Notes: generated by a model from the sequence alone, not told the origin. A stretch of 64,000 nt of DNA from an uncultured bacterium (GCA_903945195.1 CAJAUT010000013.1:11473-75472), one strand, 5' to 3'. Shown: positions 54,109 to 60,752, numbered from the stretch's first letter. Translations and numbers: made by a program.

Positions 54109-56235
54109 TTACTTGTTTTCTTTATTAATAATTTTGTCAGCAATGTTGCTTGGGACGGGGTCGTAATGGCTCATTTCCATGTACGAACTGGCTCGACCCT
54201 GGGTCATGCTTCTAAGTATTGTAACATAGCGAGATAGCTCAGACAAGGGAACAATGGCGTTGATCACGCGCACATTTCCTCTTTGGCTGGTACCTAATAC
54301 TTGACCACGTTTACTAGAGATATCGCCGATCACATCTCCCATGAAATCTTCGGGCGTGGTGATCTCTAGCTTCATGATTGGTTCTAAGATGATTGGGGTA
54401 GCTTGTCTCACGGCGGATTGGATGGCCATAGAACCTGCGATCTTGAAGGCAATTTCACTCGAGTCGACATCGTGGAACGAACCATCGTAAAGGGTGACCT
54501 CTATATCAACCAAGTTGAAGCCGGCAATAATACCGTTTTCTAGGGCTTCTCTGACACCCTTTTCAACTGGGGTGATGAATTCTTTAGGAATGACACCACC
54601 AACGATGGCGTTGACAAATTTGACACCTTCACCACGTGGAAGAGGTTTGATACGGAGATAACAATGACCATATTGACCACGACCACCTGATTGCTTGATG
54701 TATTTACCTTCGGCATCGGCGTCTTTTGTGATGGTTTCGCGGTAGGCAACCTGTGGATTACCCACATTGGCGTCTACGTTGAACTCGCGCTTCATGCGGT
54801 CGACGATGATTTCTAGATGTAGTTCGCCCATGCCAGCGATCAAGGTCTGACCAGTTTCTTGGTTGGTGCGGATCTTGAAGGTAGGATCTTCTTCGGCTAA
54901 TCTAGCAAGAGCCATACCCATCTTTTCCTGATCGGCTTTGGTTTTTGGTTCGATAGAGAGTGAGATAACTGGCTCGGCAAAAGAGATACCTTCGAGCATG
55001 ATTGGATGGTCTGGAACACAGAGAGTGTCGCCGGTGCGCGTATCTTTCATGCCTACGACACCTACGATCTCACCTGCAACTGCCTCTGGTACTTCTTCGC
55101 GATCATTAGCGTGCATTAAGACGAGACGTCCGACGCGCTCGGTCTTGTCTCTTGTGGCATTGTAGATATAGGAGCCACTTGTGATCTTGCCTGAGTAAAC
55201 GCGGAGATATGTGAGCTTGCCAATGTGTGGATCTGCTTGGATTTTAAAAGACAAGCCTGCAAAAGGTTCTTTGACATCTGGCTTGCGGATAGCTACTTCG
55301 TCGGTACCTGGCACTTTACCTTCGGCTGGAGGAACGTCGAGTGGAGACGGTAGGTAGTCGACGACACCATCAAGTAGTGGCTGGACACCTTTGTTGCGAA
55401 GTGAAGTACCACAATACATAGGTACGAGCTTGTAGGCGATGGTTGCGGCGCGGAGGGCTTTTTTGAGCTCAACGAGAGTTGGGACAACGCCATCTAGATA
55501 TTTCTCAAGGAGAACATCGTCGGTTTCACAGATTTGCTCAATGAGATGAGCGCGCTCACGAGCTACTTCTTCGATCATGTCTTCTGGGATAGGACCTACT
55601 GTGTAAGCTGCGCCTGTTTCGTCGCCGGCCCAGATGACTGATTGCTCTTCAAGTAGCATGACGACGCCCTTGAAGGAATTTTCGGCGCCAATTGGATAGG
55701 TGACGATCGCGGTATGGGCGCCTAGTTTTTCTTCGACGTCGGCAAGGGTGTGCTTGAAGTCGGCACCCATCTTGTCCATTTTGTTGACGAAACAGATACG
55801 AGGCACTTTATATTTGTCTGCTTGGCGCCAGACAGTTTCGGATTGGGACTGGACACCTTCTTCGGCATCTAGCACTGTGACACCACCATCTAGCACGCGC
55901 AGACTACGCTCTACTTCGGCGGTGAAGTCGACGTGTCCTGGTGTGTCGATCAAGTTGATGCGATATTGGTCGGTAAAGAGAGATTTGGGGAGTTTGGGTG
56001 TCCAGAAAGTGGTGGTAGCGGCGGAGACGATTGTGATACCGCGCTCTTTTTCTTGCTCCATCCAGTCCATCTGGGTATTACCATCATCGATGTCACCAAT
56101 CTTGTAGGACTTGCCAGTGTAGAAAAGGATGCGTTCTGAGGTTGTGGTTTTACCCGCGTCGATGTGGGCGATGATGCCGATATTGCGGATTTTATCCATT
56201 GCTAGTTGACGATCTTGTGTTTTGACGATGGCCAT
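54109..56235 (-). CDS. fusA: elongation factor G
   Basis: [19 protein letters not shown]-motifs; five-domain length. Confidence 0.9.
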
Positions 56236-56327
56236 ATAGATTTAATCCTAAATCTTAAATTCTCAAATTCTCAAGTTAAGAGAGCTTTGAGCGACAAATA
56301 ATTACTCAAACTAATGAGGCAGGGTGT

Positions 56328-56357
56328 ATTGTACTCTATACTCAGGCACTTGAGCAA
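56328..56357 (-). promoter_or_regulatory. candidate fusA-tuf promoter (TTGCTC, 18-nt spacer, TACAAT)
   Basis: Read on minus strand in the spacer between the small ORF and fusA. Confidence 0.35.
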
Positions 56358-56369
56358 GAGATCTGGGAG

Positions 56370-56546
56370 TTACTCGGCTGCGTTCTTCACGGCTTCTTCC
56401 TCTAAAAATTGAGCTCGTGCTCGTGCGTTCTTAGCATCTTCCGTAAGTCCATCTTTTTCCGCCAATTTTGCTGTCAAGATCAAATCGGCATGCTGATCTA
56501 CCACGAGAGTGGTTGGTGTTGCTGTAACTGCAGTCTCTACTACCAT
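56370..56546 (-). CDS. small protein (58 aa) with strong Shine-Dalgarno (GGAGGA, 7 nt spacing); not in ORF track
   Basis: MVVETAVTATPTTLVVDQHADLILTAKLAEKDGLTEDAKNARARAQFLEEEAVKNAAE; own promoter 56579..56607. Confidence 0.45.
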   Translation of the reverse strand: MVVETAVTATPTTLVVDQHADLILTAKLAEKDGLTEDAKNARARAQFLEEEAVKNAAE

Positions 56547-56578
56547 AATTCTTCCTCCAATTTATTAATCTAAAGAGG

Positions 56579-56607
56579 ATTATCGAGAGAGAGAGAGAGT
56601 TTGTCAA
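56579..56607 (-). promoter_or_regulatory. strong sigma70-like promoter TTGACA, 17-nt spacer, GATAAT whose spacer is almost entirely a (CT)7 microsatellite
   Basis: -35 at 56602..56607, -10 at 56579..56584, repeat 56585..56599 (GA)7G on the plus strand. Confidence 0.5.
56585..56599. repeat. (GA)7G dinucleotide microsatellite forming the promoter spacer
   Basis: gagagagagagagag. Confidence 0.9.
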
Positions 56608-56640
56608 ATTGATAGGGAAAAACAAGGTTCGGAACTTTGT

Positions 56641-57441
56641 TTATTTAAGAAAATTTTTCTTAGTGACGATGGATTTGCCTAGGCGGGTTTCTAGAGCTGT
56701 GCGGGCGTCGCCAGCGATCTTGCCACCAGCCACAGCATCAGATTTGAGTTTTGGATAACCTTTTGAGTCCTCGGTACGATGGATCTCGGTAGTGGCGCGC
56801 TCGCCGAGCATGGTAAAGATGAGCTCAAGATCGTCCATGTGGTCACGGAGATTTTGATGTTTGAGCGATTTGATCTTTCGATATTCGCTCGGCGTCACTC
56901 CAAAAGTAGCTTTGCTGATCTCGGCAGTTAAAATCTCATATTCTCTACCCTCGTTGGCTCCGCGGTCCTTCCACTCTTGTGTTAACTCTTCCCGAATTGC
57001 GATGCCACGCATCCTTTTCTCGATCCAACTGTCTGGATACCCCTTGGCTTTATATAGTGCTCTGGTGCGCTTGGTGGCAAGCTCGGGGTCTTCGATCTCC
57101 TGAATCCGCTCGTAGCCAACTTTTGCAAGCCAGCGTTTGAAAGGCTCGGCTTTTGGTGAAGGGATGGACTGGATGATGCGAAAAATACCTTCTGTATTTG
57201 CACAAACAATATTTTGCACTCCGCCGGCAGTTTTGATTGGAAGGGGGTGTTCAATTTGAACCCACCCTTTGAATAACTCTTCATCTCGATTTAACATGTT
57301 CTGGAGATATTGCTTTGGGTTTTGTGAATCAGTTAATGCAGCAATTACATCAACAATCACAAACCACCATTCATTTTTATAAATAGTTTTTCGAATTTCT
57401 TTTTGATGGAAGATGGCTATACGAGTCTCTGAGTCTGTCAT
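56641..57441 (-). CDS. Bro-N domain / DinD-like (DNA-damage-inducible protein D-like) protein; ATG 57441 preferred over TTG 57459
   Basis: N-terminal Bro-N-like pattern (IAIFHQKEIRKTIYKNEWWFVIVDVIAAL); C-terminal similarity to E. coli DinD (NLRDHM..EL...E...). Confidence 0.5.
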   Translation of the reverse strand: MTDSETRIAIFHQKEIRKTIYKNEWWFVIVDVIAALTDSQNPKQYLQNMLNRDEELFKGWVQIEHPLPIKTAGGVQNIVCANTEGIFRIIQSIPSPKAEPFKRWLAKVGYERIQEIEDPELATKRTRALYKAKGYPDSWIEKRMRGIAIREELTQEWKDRGANEGREYEILTAEISKATFGVTPSEYRKIKSLKHQNLRDHMDDLELIFTMLGERATTEIHRTEDSKGYPKLKSDAVAGGKIAGDARTALETRLGKSIVTKKNFLK

Positions 57442-57461
57442 ATTTCCATGATCCCCCAATG

Positions 57462-57488
57462 TAACACGAATGTCAATATGTGTATAAT
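57462..57488. promoter_or_regulatory. divergent promoter region: minus-strand ATTGACATTCGTGT module (leaderless geometry for 56641..57441) and plus-strand perfect TATAAT (57483..57488) for tgt
   Basis: Third instance of the TTGACATTCG module; -10 GATCAT ends 7 nt before ATG 57441. Confidence 0.4.
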
Positions 57489-57532
57489 CTCAAGATATCC
57501 CCCTTCGTTCTGGGGGAACTACGGAGGAACAC

Positions 57533-58678
57533 GTGCAAGATAATTTTAGAATGTTAAATGGGCAGACACTGCCATATCCACTGTTTTTCCCGGATGCTAC
57601 GAGGGGTGAGGTAAGACAGCTGACATTTGAGGATGTAAAAATGGTTGGGTTACCAGGGATACTCGTAAATACCTTTCATCTACTGAGACTAGTGGGGACA
57701 GAGAAAACCGTGGCAGCTGGTGGAATACATAAATACCTGGGATGGGACGGCGCTATGATATCTGACTCTGGAGGATTTCAGGTAATGTCGATCGCCAAGA
57801 AATATGGGGGAAACAGCACTGTGACGGATGAGGGTGTGACATTCACTCTCGACGGCATTGATCATCATTTCTCCCCCGAAGATTCAATTAAATATCAGAT
57901 GGCGATGGGGACTGACCTAATGGTGGTGCTAGATGACTTCACCCCACCGGATGCCACACATGAAGAAGCGGAGGTCACGGTAAATAGGACGACACTTTGG
58001 GCAAAGAGATGTAAGGAAGAATTCAACAGGCTGCAAAGTTCCGATCACTCGCCTAAAATCACGCAAGGATCGGAACTAGGGAACAAAAGACCTTATCTGA
58101 TTGGGGTGGTACAGGGAGGAGAATACGAAGACCTGAGACTAAAGAGCATTAAAGAGCTGATGGAAATTGGGTTTGATGGGTACGGTTATGGAGGATTCCC
58201 CATGAAAGATGGGAAATTTGATGAGGCAATGGCAAAGTTTATGGCGGACAATTTGCCAAAAGATACCGTATTGTATGGCCTAGGAATAGGTAAACCAGAT
58301 GATATTGTGAAATGCGTGAACCTAGGATGGCAGATATTTGATTGTGTCCTACCAACAAGGGACGCCCGCCACGGACGGCTTTATGTATATACCAATGAAC
58401 CTGCCCGCAGTGCTTACAGCACAGCTGTTGCAGGCGGGTCGATTCAACGGATCAATGTGCAAAAAGATGGATTTTATGAATATTACAACCCTAGACAGGC
58501 GTTACATCTCGAAGAAACTGGGCCGGTTAGTAGTGCGTGTGATTGCGAACTGTGCACGAGTTTGAGCCGCAAAGAATTTGCTACCATGTGGAGAGCGCGA
58601 GATGAAAAAGTGCTGCGACTAGCCACGATCCATAACCTTAGGTTTTATGCGATACTGATGGAAAAATTGAGGAAATGA
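57533..58678 (+). CDS. tgt: queuine tRNA-ribosyltransferase (GTG start with GGAGGA Shine-Dalgarno)
   Basis: DSGGFQ, LMVVLDDFTPP, VQGG, GFDGYGYGG, FDCVLPTRDARHG, CDCELC...H zinc site; about 28-aa lineage-specific insertion before the zinc site. Confidence 0.8.
   Translation: MQDNFRMLNGQTLPYPLFFPDATRGEVRQLTFEDVKMVGLPGILVNTFHLLRLVGTEKTVAAGGIHKYLGWDGAMISDSGGFQVMSIAKKYGGNSTVTDEGVTFTLDGIDHHFSPEDSIKYQMAMGTDLMVVLDDFTPPDATHEEAEVTVNRTTLWAKRCKEEFNRLQSSDHSPKITQGSELGNKRPYLIGVVQGGEYEDLRLKSIKELMEIGFDGYGYGGFPMKDGKFDEAMAKFMADNLPKDTVLYGLGIGKPDDIVKCVNLGWQIFDCVLPTRDARHGRLYVYTNEPARSAYSTAVAGGSIQRINVQKDGFYEYYNPRQALHLEETGPVSSACDCELCTSLSRKEFATMWRARDEKVLRLATIHNLRFYAILMEKLRK
58399..58440. repeat. 42-nt repeat, exact copy of 11..52, in-frame inside tgt (encodes EPARSAYSTAVAGGS)
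   Basis: Direct comparison. Confidence 0.8.
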
Positions 58679-58690
58679 TAAGATAAAAAT

Positions 58691-58999
58691 ATGGTAGAGA
58701 TAATTGCGATTGTAGTGGCACTATGGCTACTTGGGGTGATAAATATCCCATGGCTCACTATGCCCCACTTCCCCGTTTTTTCTGTGCTTGGTTATAGCGT
58801 GACTATCCAGAGACTCCTGATCTTTGGGATTGTCATCTGGTTGGCATCGAGCTTGGGATCGCCTTTTCGCCAGATGCTGTGGGTATTTTTTATCTTATGG
58901 CTCCTGTCGACACTCGGAATAATAGGGACAATCGCGATGGGGACTTTGATTCTTGTTTCGATTGTGGTGGGACTGATACTTTCGGTCGTGCAAAAATAA
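58691..58999 (+). CDS. small hydrophobic membrane protein (3 TM)
   Basis: Hydrophobicity; 12 nt after tgt. Confidence 0.4.
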   Translation: MVEIIAIVVALWLLGVINIPWLTMPHFPVFSVLGYSVTIQRLLIFGIVIWLASSLGSPFRQMLWVFFILWLLSTLGIIGTIAMGTLILVSIVVGLILSVVQK

Positions 59000-59003
59000 T
59001 ATT

Positions 59004-59767
59004 TCACAAAACTAGATTGGGAAATGATAATTCAAGATTTTCGTTGATTTGACGACCGGTGAGGCGATATACCTTATAGCCGAGACCATAGAGATATTGA
59101 TCTTTTCTCTTATCTCTAATCTTACTTTGAGGTCGTAAATGCCAAAACTCGCCATCGCACTCGATAATTGTCTTTGTGCCGGTGAGTAAAAAGTCGGCTC
59201 GATATTTGGCAAATTTCACTTCCTGTTGAAATTCAATGTGTTTACTCTCGAGATATTTACGAACTTTTTCTTCGAGAGATGACTCGCCATTGAATTTGAT
59301 AAAACATTCCCGCGAGCAAAATTTGCCCCTTCCGGTATTGATCACCGAATTAGGAATGGTAAATTCCTGATGACAATTGGCACACTTTTTGGTGACAAAC
59401 TCTGACATACCAAGGTCGTGACATTTTTTAGAACAGTATATGGTGTGAACGGCCACGGCTGGTGAACGCTTTACTGCCTTGCCACACTGTTGACAAATTT
59501 TAGTGACAAGATGATCTCTGTTTACTTTGTTCTGGCACGTGCGTCTGCAATAAATTCCGAATCCGTGGCGAACTTGGGTGGGCGATGGGATAAATGTCTT
59601 TTTACAGATAAACATCTCTTTTCGAACTTTAATCTTGTCGAGTTATGGTAACAAGGAAGCGAGCAATAATTGGTTGGTCGGACAAGATATGGCATTTTTA
59701 TAAAATCTTTACCACATCCATCACATTTAACTTGTTCTCTATATCCAATGGGACTGACTTTACGCAT
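59004..59767 (-). pseudogene. frameshifted gene: N-terminal tandem Cys4 zinc-ribbon repeats plus C-terminal DUF559 (Vsr/PD-(D/E)xK-like) endonuclease domain
   Basis: ORFs 59522..59767 and 59004..59615 overlap out of frame; a 1-nt deletion near 59612 restores a continuous K-x-C-x2-C-G-K-x-F...Y-C-S-x2-C repeat; YRADFLLTGTKTIIECDGEFWH matches the DUF559 core. Confidence 0.5.
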
Positions 59768-59848
59768 ATTATTCGGTATCTACGTATTAGTGTAGAACCA
59801 AATAATATTGCTGTCAATAAATTGCTTGAAAGTGAAATTAGCTTGATC

Positions 59849-60325
59849 CTACCATCTAAAATGTGAAAACGCTTTGTTTGCGTCAGCTTGTCGATGTACA
59901 TCGTCGCGTTTCTTGATGGTGGCACCTTGGCCGTTGTAGGCATCCATGATCTCAGCAGCAAGTTTCTCACCATAGGTGTGATACTCGGAGTTTGAGCGTT
60001 TATTGGAGAACTCGACCAACCAGCGGATGGAAAGTGAGAACTGGCGACGTGGGGGAACTGGCATAGGTACCTGGTAAGCAGCGCCACCAATGCGGCGACT
60101 ACGAACTTCGGTCTTTGGTTTGATGTTGTTTAGAGCGGTCATTAAAACGTCTAAAGGTTTAAGACCAGTCTTCTCGCCTAGGATATCCATGGCTTTGTAG
60201 ATCTGTTTCTCGGCTACGACTTTTTTACCGTCCATCATGGCACGATTGATGAGTTTGGCAACTTCTAAAGAGTTGTATTTAACGTCACCTTCGACTCTTT
60301 TAATACCTGCTAATTTTGCGCGCAT
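59849..60325 (-). CDS. rpsG: 30S ribosomal protein S7
   Basis: uS7 pattern. Confidence 0.9.
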   Translation of the reverse strand: MRAKLAGIKRVEGDVKYNSLEVAKLINRAMMDGKKVVAEKQIYKAMDILGEKTGLKPLDVLMTALNNIKPKTEVRSRRIGGAAYQVPMPVPPRRQFSLSIRWLVEFSNKRSNSEYHTYGEKLAAEIMDAYNGQGATIKKRDDVHRQADANKAFSHFRW

Positions 60326-60338
60326 ATTGTTTTAATCC

Positions 60339-60752
60339 TTATTTTTTAGGTCTCTTGGTTCCATATTTGGAACGTGATGTCTTGCGTTTGTCGACCCCAG
60401 CAGTGTCGTATTTTCCACGCACGATATGATATTTAACACCTGGTAAATCTTTGACACGGCCACCGCGGACCAAAACGACTGAGTGCTCGGCCAAGTTGTG
60501 ACCTTCACCCATGATGTAGGCGGTGACTTCTTGCTTGTTTGAAAGTCTAACACGAGCTACTTTACGTAGAGCTGAGTTAGGCTTTTTAGGGGTCATAGTT
60601 TTGACGATGATACAAACTCCACGTTTCTGAGGAGAAGCGTACTCGACTGACTTGCGTTTTGTGGCATTGTAACCACGGCGCAAGGCACTACCCTTTTTCT
60701 TTTTGGCTTTGGTATCTCTACCGTGTCTGACTAGTTGATTTACTGTTGGCAT
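60339..60752 (-). CDS. rpsL: 30S ribosomal protein S12
   Basis: MPTVNQLVR...PKKPNSA uS12 pattern. Confidence 0.9.

What the first reader, a model, noticed from the sequence alone, without database searches (positions are those of the whole stretch)
56236..59848. str operon split: 3.6 kb insertion between rpsG and fusA carrying Bro-N/DinD-like, tgt, a membrane protein and a broken Zn-ribbon/DUF559 nuclease
rpsL-rpsG-fusA-tuf is one of the most conserved gene strings in bacteria. Here rpsG (ends 59849) and fusA (starts 56235) are separated by five genes on both strands. Two of them are typical of mobile or defence DNA: a Bro-N/DinD-like protein, and a DUF559 endonuclease with four Cys4 ribbons that is frameshifted. 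fusA then appears to have acquired its own promoter (56328..56357). This looks like a prophage remnant or defence islet inserted into the ribosomal super-operon. It also moves tgt into an unusual context.
Basis: partly seen in the sequence, partly recalled or inferred. Interest (0 to 1): 0.6.

Follow-up and report, generated by a model that had tools for sequence, protein, structure and literature searches.

The report
Layered gene insertions splitting rpsG–fusA
The 3.6 kb between rpsG and fusA in this Microgenomates (CPR) genome is not a prophage scar but several layers of insertion at a spot where these bacteria often break the operon: an old, fixed tgt gene, a newly broken homing-endonuclease-like gene found only next to rpsG, and a variable Bro-N module.

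Summary
On the minus strand the order is rpsL, rpsG, a frameshifted Zn-ribbon/DUF559 nuclease, a 102-aa membrane protein (+), tgt (+), Bro-N, a 58-aa ORF, fusA, tuf.

The "single mobile or defence islet / prophage remnant" reading is only partly right.
- There is no integrase, att repeat or tRNA, and GC matches the window (0.433 vs 0.431).
- The antisense tgt occupies this slot throughout a monophyletic clade of at least 15 species-level lineages, under purifying selection. The fusA promoter is also clade-wide. Both are old.
- About half of 80 related Patescibacteria species carry extra DNA between rpsG and fusA, with diverse cargo. This operon boundary is a habitual insertion hot spot.

The most interesting part is the nuclease. 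It has four Zn ribbons plus a Vsr-like domain whose nearest solved relative is the EDxHD homing endonuclease I-Bth0305I. In every informative locus (about 26 lineages) its subfamily sits directly 3′ of rpsG with its own promoter. It is patchy among sister species and mostly intact. Here a real 1-nt deletion has broken it.

The Bro-N gene (PADLOC candidate PDC-S13) carries a conserved promoter with a (CT)n spacer, followed by a small ORF that differs between strains.

Homing activity is inferred, not shown.

The parts
59849..60325 (-). rpsG (ribosomal protein S7). It is the last gene of the rpoB-rpoC-rpsL-rpsG unit and the fixed left neighbour of the nuclease cassette.
   Evidence: Pfam Ribosomal_S7 2e-51. 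It lies directly upstream of every informative member of the nuclease subfamily.
59789..59817 (-). Promoter-like element of the nuclease cassette (TTGACA-17-TACACT), in the 81-bp spacer after the rpsG stop.
   Evidence: Consensus scan. A TTGAC[AT]-N17-TAnnnT element is found in 17 of 24 rpsG-nuclease spacers from divergent lineages. Activity was not tested.
59004..59767 (-). Pseudogene (or split gene) of a 4x Zn-ribbon + Vsr-like (EDxHD-type) nuclease. A 1-nt deletion at about 59609-59612 leaves an 81-aa N fragment (59522-59767) and a 203-aa C fragment (59004-59615).
   Evidence: The catalytic residues (RADF, IECDGEFWH, RDKRK) are still present in the C fragment. dN/dS is 0.05 against the intact L007 orthologue, so the break is recent.
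58691..58999 (+). 102-aa small membrane protein of unknown function, co-directional with tgt.
   Evidence: No Pfam or NCBIfam hit. It is conserved next to tgt in L006, L007, L009, L010, L095 and L346 (56-87% identity). dN/dS is 0.05-0.14. Only 49 representative clusters of about 100 aa exist.
57533..58678 (+). tgt (tRNA-guanine transglycosylase), antisense to the str genes. It is the old, clade-wide resident of the spacer.
   Evidence: Pfam TGT 4.5e-83. It is present between rpsG and fusA in all members of the clade except L016. Catalytic Asp residues and the Zn site are kept. dN/dS is 0.05-0.10.
57442..57532 (.). Divergent tgt/Bro-N intergenic region with a promoter-like site on each strand (57461-57488 on +, 57476-57448 on -).
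   Evidence: Consensus scan only. Not tested.
56641..57441 (-). Bro-N domain protein of 266 aa: an N-terminal Bro-N domain plus a helical C-terminal domain. It matches PADLOC candidate PDC-S13.
   Evidence: Pfam Bro-N 1.8e-14. PADLOC PDC-S13 3e-107 over the full length, and phrog_15286 1e-80. More than 8000 homologues, 74-97% identical across CPR phyla. The predicted fold is closest to DdrC. dN/dS is 0.05.
56579..56607 (-). Strongest promoter match in the region (TTGACA-17-GATAAT). Its spacer is a (CT)7 tract (+ strand 56585-56598).
   Evidence: It is conserved downstream of Bro in L004, L103, L015 and L096. The spacer is 17 nt here and 15 nt in sister strain L004.
56370..56546 (-). 58-aa ORF with no homologues. 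It occupies a variable slot between the Bro module and the fusA promoter.
   Evidence: No family hits. It is replaced by unrelated ORFs in L004 (76 aa), L103 (92 aa), L015 and L096.
56236..56358 (-). fusA promoter (-35 TTGCTC at 56353-56358, -10 TACAAT at 56329-56334) and a conserved leader of about 90 nt that begins GCCTCATT.
   Evidence: It is conserved upstream of fusA in L003, L004, L006, L009, L010, L011, L013, L014 and L096, including genomes without Bro.
54109..56235 (-). fusA (EF-G), first gene of the fusA-tuf-rpsJ... unit.
   Evidence: Pfam EF-G domains.

Best explanation
The 3.6 kb is a mosaic that built up in layers at the rpsG|fusA boundary. In this part of the Patescibacteria that boundary separates two transcription units and tolerates insertions.

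Layer 1 (old, fixed). An antisense tgt gene entered the spacer in the ancestor of a family-level Microgenomates clade. It was later joined by a 102-aa membrane-protein gene. It has since been inherited vertically as an ordinary housekeeping gene. fusA is served by its own conserved promoter.

Layer 2 (locus-specific selfish element). Directly 3' of rpsG sits a self-contained cassette: its own promoter plus a nuclease with an array of four or more Zn ribbons and a Vsr-like EDxHD-type catalytic domain. I infer that it is, or descends from, a free-standing homing endonuclease gene. On this model its product recognises the cassette-free rpsG 3' junction and cuts there, and the gene is copied in by recombinational repair. 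That would explain why the subfamily is found only at this site, is patchy among sister species, and is absent cleanly elsewhere. In this genome a 1-nt deletion has recently inactivated it, which is the decay phase of the homing cycle.

Layer 3 (variable). Between tgt and the fusA promoter lies a Bro-N/DdrC-like DNA-binding protein (PADLOC candidate PDC-S13). It carries a conserved downstream promoter whose spacer is a (CT)n tract, followed by a small ORF that is swapped between strains.

Shown: gene identities, conservation patterns, the reality of the frameshift, fold and catalytic-residue conservation, locus specificity, and strain variability.

Inferred: homing activity, promoter function, and any defence role of the Bro module.
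For: Mosaic and old core.
- tgt lies between rpsG and fusA in all members of a monophyletic clade except L016. Further members confirm this.
- dN/dS is at most 0.14 for tgt, the membrane protein and Bro.
- The fusA promoter is conserved with or without Bro.
- Islet GC equals the window GC. There are no att repeats and no tRNA.

Hot spot.
- Of 80 species, 37 have rpsG and fusA adjacent and 40 have them interrupted or separated.
- The cargo is unrelated from one lineage to the next: IS200/RAYT, 23S-IVS protein, plain DUF559, methyltransferase, GT2, M16 peptidase, P-type ATPase, ABC transporter, HAD, GNAT.
- The cassette-free relative L064 has a terminator-like hairpin and then the fusA promoter where L112 has the nuclease.

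Nuclease.
- The best PDB sequence hit is I-Bth0305I (3r3p), E = 9e-13. It is also the best fold hit, with TM 0.74-0.75.
- D192, E203, D205, H210 and D219 are invariant. They align with I-Bth0305I D196, E206, N208, H213 and D222.
- The Zn-ribbon part matches phage 'HNH/homing endonuclease' PHROGs.
- Distant relatives sit in phage-like contexts, next to an intein-bearing terminase or a NUMOD3 protein.
- Every informative homologue at 41% identity or more, plus L130 at about 36%, lies directly after rpsG on the same strand.
- The cassette has its own conserved promoter.
- It is patchy among sisters. No remnants are found in cassette-free clade members.
- The frameshift is real and recent.

Bro module.
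-.
Against: - No cleavage or homing was tested, and no target site could be defined.
- The nuclease tree is broadly congruent with the rpsG tree (Spearman 0.73).
- The nuclease has co-diverged with its hosts where this can be checked. L111 vs L112 dS is 1.19, against 0.5-0.9 for the flanking genes.
- The one clear incongruence (L101) is due to a divergent rpsG, not to a transferred nuclease.
- dN/dS of about 0.05 shows long-term selection, which also fits a host function.
- The DNA-binding part is a Zn-ribbon array, not the NUMOD region of characterised EDxHD enzymes.
- Promoters are consensus matches only. The scan found 16 sites against 9.6 +/- 3.1 expected by chance.
- Bro could be an ancestral resident lost several times rather than a mobile gene.
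Confidence: 0.6

Rival explanations
1. First reader's model. The whole 3.6 kb is one mobile insertion, either a prophage remnant or a defence islet, that landed recently in the str operon and forced fusA to acquire a promoter.
For: - Bro-N and DUF559-type nucleases are typical of mobile DNA.
- The nuclease is frameshifted.
- The region is more strain-variable than its flanks.
Against: - tgt and the fusA promoter are clade-wide.
- The components occur independently of each other. Some loci have rpsG-nuclease-fusA only, some have tgt only, and some have tgt + Bro without the nuclease.
- There is no integrase, no att repeat, no tRNA and no GC deviation.
- All intact genes are under purifying selection.
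Confidence: 0.05
2. The nuclease is not selfish. It is a vertically inherited host gene functionally tied to the str operon, for example a Vsr/RAP-like nucleic-acid-processing or repair factor, possibly RNA- or ribosome-associated. It has been lost many times and is being lost here.
For: - It is always co-oriented with and adjacent to rpsG.
- Most copies are intact.
- dN/dS is about 0.05.
- The trees are broadly congruent, and its dS is similar to that of the flanks.
- Fold hits include RAP-type proteins of the Toxoplasma mitoribosome, and there is a weak Pfam RAP hit.
Against: - It is present in only about 5 of 80 related species representatives, with nuclease-free sisters and no remnants. 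This would need very many clean losses.
- In sister lineages the slot is filled instead by IS200/RAYT genes.
- Its nearest characterised relative is a homing endonuclease.
- The same architecture occurs in phage contigs.
- It has its own promoter rather than simple operon membership.
Confidence: 0.3
3. Assembly or binning artefact: a chimeric contig joins rpsG and fusA flanks to unrelated DNA, and the frameshift is a sequencing error.
For: The source is a MAG. Homopolymer-type errors can mimic frameshifts.
Against: - The same arrangement occurs in independent assemblies from ENA, Logan and NCBI.
- A diverged strain (L004) carries the same deletion.
- Many related species share the arrangement.
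Confidence: 0.01

Closest known systems
EDxHD homing endonucleases (prototype I-Bth0305I, PDB 3R3P; PMC3239194)
   Same: - The C-terminal Vsr-like nuclease domain is the best sequence match (E 9e-13) and the best fold match (TM 0.74-0.75).
- All catalytic positions are conserved across the family.
- The protein is bipartite, with an N-terminal DNA-binding region and a C-terminal nuclease.
- Free-standing members of the EDxHD family are known.
- Relatives occur in phages.
   Different: - The DNA-binding part is an array of 4-6 zf-FCS/MYM-like Zn ribbons rather than NUMOD/HTH motifs.
- The gene is chromosomal, in CPR bacteria, and not in an intron, intein or phage.
- The subfamily is restricted to one intergenic site, 3' of rpsG.
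- No activity has been shown.
- The copy in this window is frameshifted.
Free-standing homing endonuclease genes of T4-like phages (Seg/Mob/Hef; 'intronless homing')
   Same: - The gene sits between conserved genes and has its own promoter.
- It is patchy among relatives.
- Different selfish genes occupy the same slot in sister genomes (here the nuclease versus IS200/RAYT).
   Different: - Those are phage genes of the GIY-YIG or HNH type (Hef is Vsr-like).
- Here the host is a cellular chromosome and the slot is a ribosomal operon boundary.
- Inheritance appears mostly vertical.
E. coli Vsr / DUF559 proteins (PDB 1VSR, 1CW0, 3HRL)
   Same: The PD-(D/E)xK-derived Vsr fold and catalytic Asp/His residues.
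   Different: - Scores are below the curated Vsr cut-offs.
- No dcm-type methyltransferase was seen among the ORFs scanned in the 3.6 kb.
- It has extra Zn-ribbon arrays.
- Its genomic position is fixed.
Bro-N proteins / PADLOC candidate PDC-S13 / phrog_15286; structurally DdrC of Deinococcus
   Same: - Full-length HMM matches.
- An N-terminal Bro-N (winged-helix-like) domain plus a helical C-terminal domain.
- DdrC is the only significant PDB fold hit.
   Different: - PDC-S13 is an untested candidate system.
- Similarity to E. coli DinD is marginal.
- The DdrC match has TM of only 0.4-0.5.
- In CPR the family is far more conserved (74-85% across phyla) than expected for a typical accessory gene.
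Bacterial tRNA-guanine(34) transglycosylase Tgt (Z. mobilis TGT structures)
   Same: The fold, catalytic D102/D156/D280 equivalents and the CxCxxC...H zinc site are kept.
   Different: - The score is below the TIGR00430 equivalog cut-off.
- Pocket residues differ (C158 to F, V233 to M, E235 to D).
- It has a 32-aa insertion.
- It is encoded antisense inside the str gene string.

Membership tests
EDxHD homing endonuclease family | Vsr-like catalytic domain fold | tested here: met
   - Profile vs PDB: 3r3p_A, E 9.3e-13.
- AF2 model of orthologue P0002 (pLDDT 89): Foldseek top hit 3r3p, TM 0.74-0.75, rmsd 3.0-3.3 over about 90 residues.
EDxHD homing endonuclease family | Conserved catalytic residues (I-Bth0305I D196, E206, H213, D222) | tested here: met
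   - D192, E203, H210 and D219 (plus D205) are invariant in 24-40 family members.
- They were aligned to 3r3p. Residue roles are taken from PMC3239194.
- The residues are present in the window's C fragment, but the ORF is frameshifted.
EDxHD homing endonuclease family | N-terminal NUMOD/HTH DNA-binding region | tested here: not met
   The N-terminal region is 4-6 CxxC...C...C Zn ribbons (zf-FCS hits). No NUMOD hit was found.
EDxHD homing endonuclease family | Selfish-element context: in an intron or intein, or free-standing at a fixed site in or near a conserved gene, with patchy distribution | tested here: met
   - It is free-standing and always directly 3' of rpsG in about 26 lineages.
- It is patchy among sisters.
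- No remnants are found in empty sites.
EDxHD homing endonuclease family | Site-specific double-strand cleavage of the cassette-free allele, and homing | not testable with these tools
   Needs biochemistry or population data. The phylogenetic signal for transfer is weak.
Vsr very-short-patch repair endonuclease | Score above curated family cut-offs | tested here: not met
   - PF03852: 22.2 bits against a cut-off of 27.
- TIGR00632: 25.3 bits against a cut-off of 97.85.
Prophage / integrative element | Integrase or recombinase, and phage structural or replication genes | tested here: not met
   None of the six ORFs scanned in the 3.6 kb (five genes, the nuclease as two fragments) matches such a family.
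Prophage / integrative element | att-like direct repeats at the borders, or a tRNA target | tested here: not met
   - No border repeats. The only repeat spanning the region (D1) is the similar RBS/start region of fusA and rpsG.
- No tRNA or tmRNA in the window.
Prophage / integrative element | Presence/absence of the whole block among relatives, and atypical composition | tested here: not met
   - The components vary independently and tgt is clade-wide.
- GC is 0.433 against 0.431.
PADLOC PDC-S13 / Bro-N family | Full-length HMM match and Bro-N domain | tested here: met
   - PDLC04920: 3.1e-107, residues 5-265.
- PF02498: 54.5 bits against a cut-off of 25.6.
PADLOC PDC-S13 / Bro-N family | Anti-phage function | not testable with these tools
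   PDC-S13 is a candidate only. No paper mentioning it was found.
E. coli DinD | Significant sequence similarity to DinD (b3645) | tested here: not met
   BLASTP E = 0.045, 17 of 44 identities, C-terminal only.
Bacterial Tgt (TIGR00430 equivalog) | Equivalog score; catalytic Asp residues; Zn site | tested here: inconclusive
   - 253.5 bits against a cut-off of 306.75.
- D102, D156, D280 and the CxCxxC...H site are conserved.
- Pocket residues C158 and V233 are replaced, and there is a 32-aa insertion.

The most novel reading that the evidence does not exclude
The rpsG-linked Zn-ribbon/EDxHD nuclease is an active, chromosome-resident homing endonuclease of CPR bacteria. On this reading its repeated cutting at the rpsG|fusA junction is what makes this boundary a cassette-exchange hot spot. 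Break repair would co-convert flanking DNA and so import or swap cargo such as tgt, the Bro module, RAYTs, transporters and the strain-variable small ORFs. That would be a cellular counterpart of nuclease genes marking boundaries of genetic exchange in phages.
Probability: 0.2. Interest if true: 0.7.

Novelty: new variant of a known kind. Interest (0 to 1): 0.5.

Why it matters
rpsL-rpsG-fusA-tuf is treated as nearly invariant and is used as a synteny and phylogenetic anchor. In Microgenomates/Patescibacteria this junction is instead a frequent insertion site, which matters for annotating and binning CPR genomes.

Selfish endonucleases in CPR are known from rRNA and tRNA introns (LAGLIDADG, GIY-YIG). 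A Vsr-like, Zn-ribbon-armed family tied to one protein-gene junction would add a new homing lineage and a possible source of programmable Zn-ribbon DNA recognition.

The Bro-N module is also worth follow-up. It has a repeat-containing promoter and a strain-specific small ORF, and its protein family is more conserved than ribosomal protein S7 across CPR phyla.

Tried and rejected
- **att-like direct repeats at the borders.** Only chance matches and one RBS-region similarity were found.
- **Rfam and tRNA scans of the window.** Nothing was found.
- **Using dS to date transfer of the nuclease.** Synonymous sites are saturated between species (dS of 1 or more, or undefined). For L111/L112 the nuclease dS is similar to that of the flanks. 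The test was therefore uninformative or pointed to vertical descent.
- **Apparent nuclease/host incongruence.** L101 has nuclease identity of 85% but rpsG identity of 74%. This traced to an unusually divergent rpsG body lying between more similar rpsL and nuclease sequences, so it is not evidence of nuclease transfer.
- **Degenerate nuclease remnants in cassette-free clade members.** Only noise was found (E > 0.05).
- **Contexts of distant nuclease homologues (37% identity or less).** None is near rpsG. Some are phage-like or archaeal.
- **'DinD-like' label.** Direct comparison with E. coli DinD is marginal.
- **Literature.** Nothing was found on PDC-S13, on homing endonucleases at rpsG/fusA, or on DUF559 homing in CPR.
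- **Defining a target site from the L112 (cassette) vs L064 (no cassette) comparison.** The spacers are unrelated beyond the rpsG stop codon, so no clean insertion joint could be read.

Full report
**1. Observation**

ORF listing and Pfam scans confirm the gene order. On the minus strand it runs rpoC, rpsL (60339-60752), rpsG (59849-60325), two overlapping fragments of a Zn-ribbon/DUF559 nuclease (59522-59767 and 59004-59615), then on the plus strand a 102-aa membrane protein (58691-58999) and tgt (57533-58678). It then returns to the minus strand with a Bro-N protein (56641-57441), a 58-aa ORF (56370-56546), fusA (54109-56235) and tuf.

The contig is a Microgenomates (Patescibacteria/CPR) MAG. 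The identical locus occurs in independent ENA and Logan assemblies. A slightly diverged strain, GCA_965094495.1 (L004), also carries it.

Alignment with the intact 273-aa orthologue of L007 shows that the nuclease is broken by a single-base deletion at about 59609-59612. L004 shares the deletion, so it is not a sequencing error. By chance the deletion puts an ATG in frame with the downstream 203 codons.

**2. Not one insertion and not a prophage**

- None of the ORFs scanned in the 3.6 kb matches an integrase or a phage structural family.
- The window has no tRNA or Rfam hit.
- There are no att-like border repeats.
- GC of the 3.6 kb is 0.433, against 0.431 for the window.

**3. Synteny in relatives**

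I fetched 80 species representatives through S7 and mapped the window's proteins onto them.

- A tree of RpoC+S12+S7 (1520 columns) recovers a monophyletic clade: the window, L006-L018, L095 and L086. Every member except L016 has tgt antisense between rpsG and fusA.
- Further members confirm this. One lies on a 964-kb contig (L346) and one has a tgt 63% identical to the window's (L347).
- tgt identity falls from 80% to 50% in step with S7 identity (95% to 67%).
- dN/dS is 0.05-0.10 for tgt and 0.05-0.14 for the membrane protein.

So tgt is an old, fixed resident.

A -35/18 nt/TACAAT element and a leader beginning GCCTCATT are conserved upstream of fusA in nine loci, including those with only 140 bp between tgt and fusA. 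It is therefore ancestral, not newly acquired.

**4. The junction is a hot spot**

Among the 80 species:
- 37 have fusA within 300 bp of rpsG;
- 33 have 377-5748 bp in between;
- 7 have no fusA within at least 2.3 kb;
- 3 are uninformative.

The cargo is unrelated from lineage to lineage. It includes IS200/RAYT-like genes, a 23S-IVS protein, a plain DUF559, methyltransferase, glycosyltransferase, M16 peptidase, P-type ATPase, ABC transporter, HAD hydrolase and GNAT.

In the cassette-free relative L064, rpsG is followed by a terminator-like hairpin and then a fusA promoter. The str string thus appears to be two transcription units here. That is a plausible reason why insertions are tolerated.

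**5. The nuclease**

*Domain structure and relatives*
- The intact protein has four (in some lineages five or six) CxxC...C...C ribbons and a C-terminal domain with invariant D192, E203, D205, W209, H210 and D219.
- A family profile hits the catalytic domain of the homing endonuclease I-Bth0305I best (3r3p, E 9e-13). DUF559 (3hrl) and Vsr follow.
- An AlphaFold model (pLDDT 89) gives the same ranking: TM 0.74-0.75 to 3r3p.
- The invariant residues align with the catalytic D196, E206, H213 and D222 of I-Bth0305I (PMC3239194).
- The ribbon region matches phage 'HNH/homing endonuclease' PHROGs.
- Distant homologues lie in phage-like contigs, next to an intein-bearing terminase or a NUMOD3 protein, or carry an HNH domain instead.

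*Locus specificity*
- The subfamily is small, with 51 clusters.
- Every member of at least 41% identity with readable upstream DNA, plus one at about 36%, lies directly after rpsG on the same strand. In most loci the spacer is 50-100 bp.
- These loci come from the GTDB set, from exact-protein look-ups and from 21 metagenome loci, about 26 lineages in all.
- Many are simply rpsG-nuclease-fusA, so the cassette is independent of tgt and Bro.
- A TTGAC[AT]-N17-TAnnnT element precedes the gene in 17 of 24 spacers.

*Distribution*
- It is patchy, found in about 5 of 80 species representatives, with nuclease-free sisters.
- Cassette-free clade members show no remnants. In four of them the rpsG and tgt stop codons abut.
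- In L006, L008, L009 and L016 the same slot holds an IS200/RAYT-like gene.

*Evidence that tempers the homing model*
- The nuclease and S7 trees are broadly congruent (Spearman 0.73).
- dN/dS is about 0.05.
- dS between L111 and L112 is similar to that of the flanks.
- The L101 anomaly is due to a mosaic rpsG.

I conclude that this is an EDxHD-type, Zn-ribbon-armed, locus-specific nuclease cassette. It is most likely a free-standing homing endonuclease gene, or a descendant of one, that is transmitted mainly vertically or among close relatives. In this genome it has just begun to decay. A domesticated host function remains a serious rival (about 0.3).

**6. The Bro-N module**

- The 266-aa protein matches PADLOC candidate PDC-S13 over its full length (3e-107) and phrog_15286.
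- More than 8000 homologues exist. The best 120 are 74-97% identical and come from many CPR phyla, which makes the family more conserved than S7. In Peregrinibacteria the gene sits in an unrelated context.
- Full-length relatives at 41-58% identity occur in 206 viral stretches.
- Similarity to E. coli DinD is marginal.
- The predicted fold (pLDDT 77) resembles only the DNA-break-binding protein DdrC (E 4e-5, TM 0.4-0.5).
- Within the tgt clade the gene sits between tgt and the fusA promoter in the window, L004, L103/L346, L015, L096 and L018/L086. These copies mostly group together. An old resident with repeated losses is therefore as likely as repeated gain.
- Downstream of Bro, a conserved TTGACA-N17-GATAAT promoter has a (CT)n tract as its spacer. 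The spacer is 17 nt here and 15 nt in strain L004. A conserved RBS follows, and then unrelated small ORFs in each genome (58, 76, 92, at least 59 and 38 aa).
- Between the two strains the background is 0-5 differences per 250 bp. Bro reaches 35, and the small-ORF segment is replaced outright. Bro dS is 0.28, against 0.01-0.04 for tuf and fusA.

This is the part of the islet that behaves as variable, possibly conflict-related DNA. Its function is unknown.

**7. Verdict**

The region is a layered mosaic at an operon boundary that is a lineage-wide insertion hot spot.

The element of wider interest is the rpsG-linked Zn-ribbon/EDxHD nuclease family. I could not find it described in the held literature.

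Noticed in passing
window 56579-56607 (tract 56585-56598); L004 13721-13747; L103 4632; L015 11023; L096 5854: The spacer of the strongest promoter match (TTGACA-N17-GATAAT, downstream of Bro-N) is a (CT)n dinucleotide tract. It is 17 nt in the window and in three other species, but 15 nt in the sister strain L004. It could be a slippage-variable (phase-variable) promoter.
   Followed up: partly
window 56370-56546; L004 13780-14010; L103 4693-; L015 11081-; L096 5914-: Behind the conserved promoter and RBS, each genome has a different, unrelated small ORF (58, 76, 92, at least 59 and 38 aa). The two strains of the same species differ completely here, although their flanks are nearly identical.
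   Followed up: partly
window 57533-58678: The TGT keeps its catalytic Asp residues and Zn site. Its substrate-pocket residues differ from Z. mobilis TGT (C158 to F, V233 to M, E235 to D), it carries a 32-aa insertion (residues 287-318), and it scores below the TIGR00430 equivalog cut-off. It may have an altered base specificity.
   Followed up: partly
L006 8512-9000; L008 4504-4911; L009 8512-9015; L016 8510-8944 and 8997-9392: In sister lineages the slot directly after rpsG holds an IS200/Y1 (REP-associated tyrosine transposase-like) gene instead of the nuclease.
   Followed up: partly
window 56641-57441 and homologues P0052-P0171: This Bro-N family is 74-85% identical across different CPR phyla (Peregrini-, Moran-, Taylor-, Levybacteria), which is more conserved than ribosomal protein S7 in the same genomes. 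The cause could be extreme constraint or recent spread. This is unexplained.
   Followed up: partly
window 59604-59618: The 1-nt deletion that breaks the nuclease also brings an ATG into frame. The 203-aa C fragment (2.5 ribbons plus an intact nuclease domain) is therefore an ORF with its own start codon. Whether it is translated is unknown.
   Followed up: no
L112 4796-5233: The fusA promoter region (CATTGATT...GCTAAAATCACAC) occurs twice: once right after the nuclease stop and again about 330 bp later, just before fusA. This suggests a further insertion or a duplication at the cassette's right border.
   Followed up: no
L101 315-791: The body of rpsG is much more divergent (61-72% nt identity to the window and L007) than the flanking rpsL (81%) and nuclease (80-86%). 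This points to a recombination mosaic within the str genes.
   Followed up: partly
window 56236-56327 and the aligned leaders in L004, L006, L009-L011, L013, L014, L096: The fusA leader of about 90 nt is conserved. It starts GCCTCATT, has a TTTGAG...CTCAAA inverted repeat, and then AT-rich GAATTTG-like repeats. There is no Rfam match. It may be a regulatory leader.
   Followed up: no
L346 2178-6977; L091 6795-9437; L012 and L016: Other lineages add more cargo at the same junction: HAD hydrolase and GNAT acetyltransferase in L346, and a three-gene ABC transporter after the nuclease in L091. In L012 and L016, fusA is no longer within 8 kb of rpsG.
   Followed up: partly
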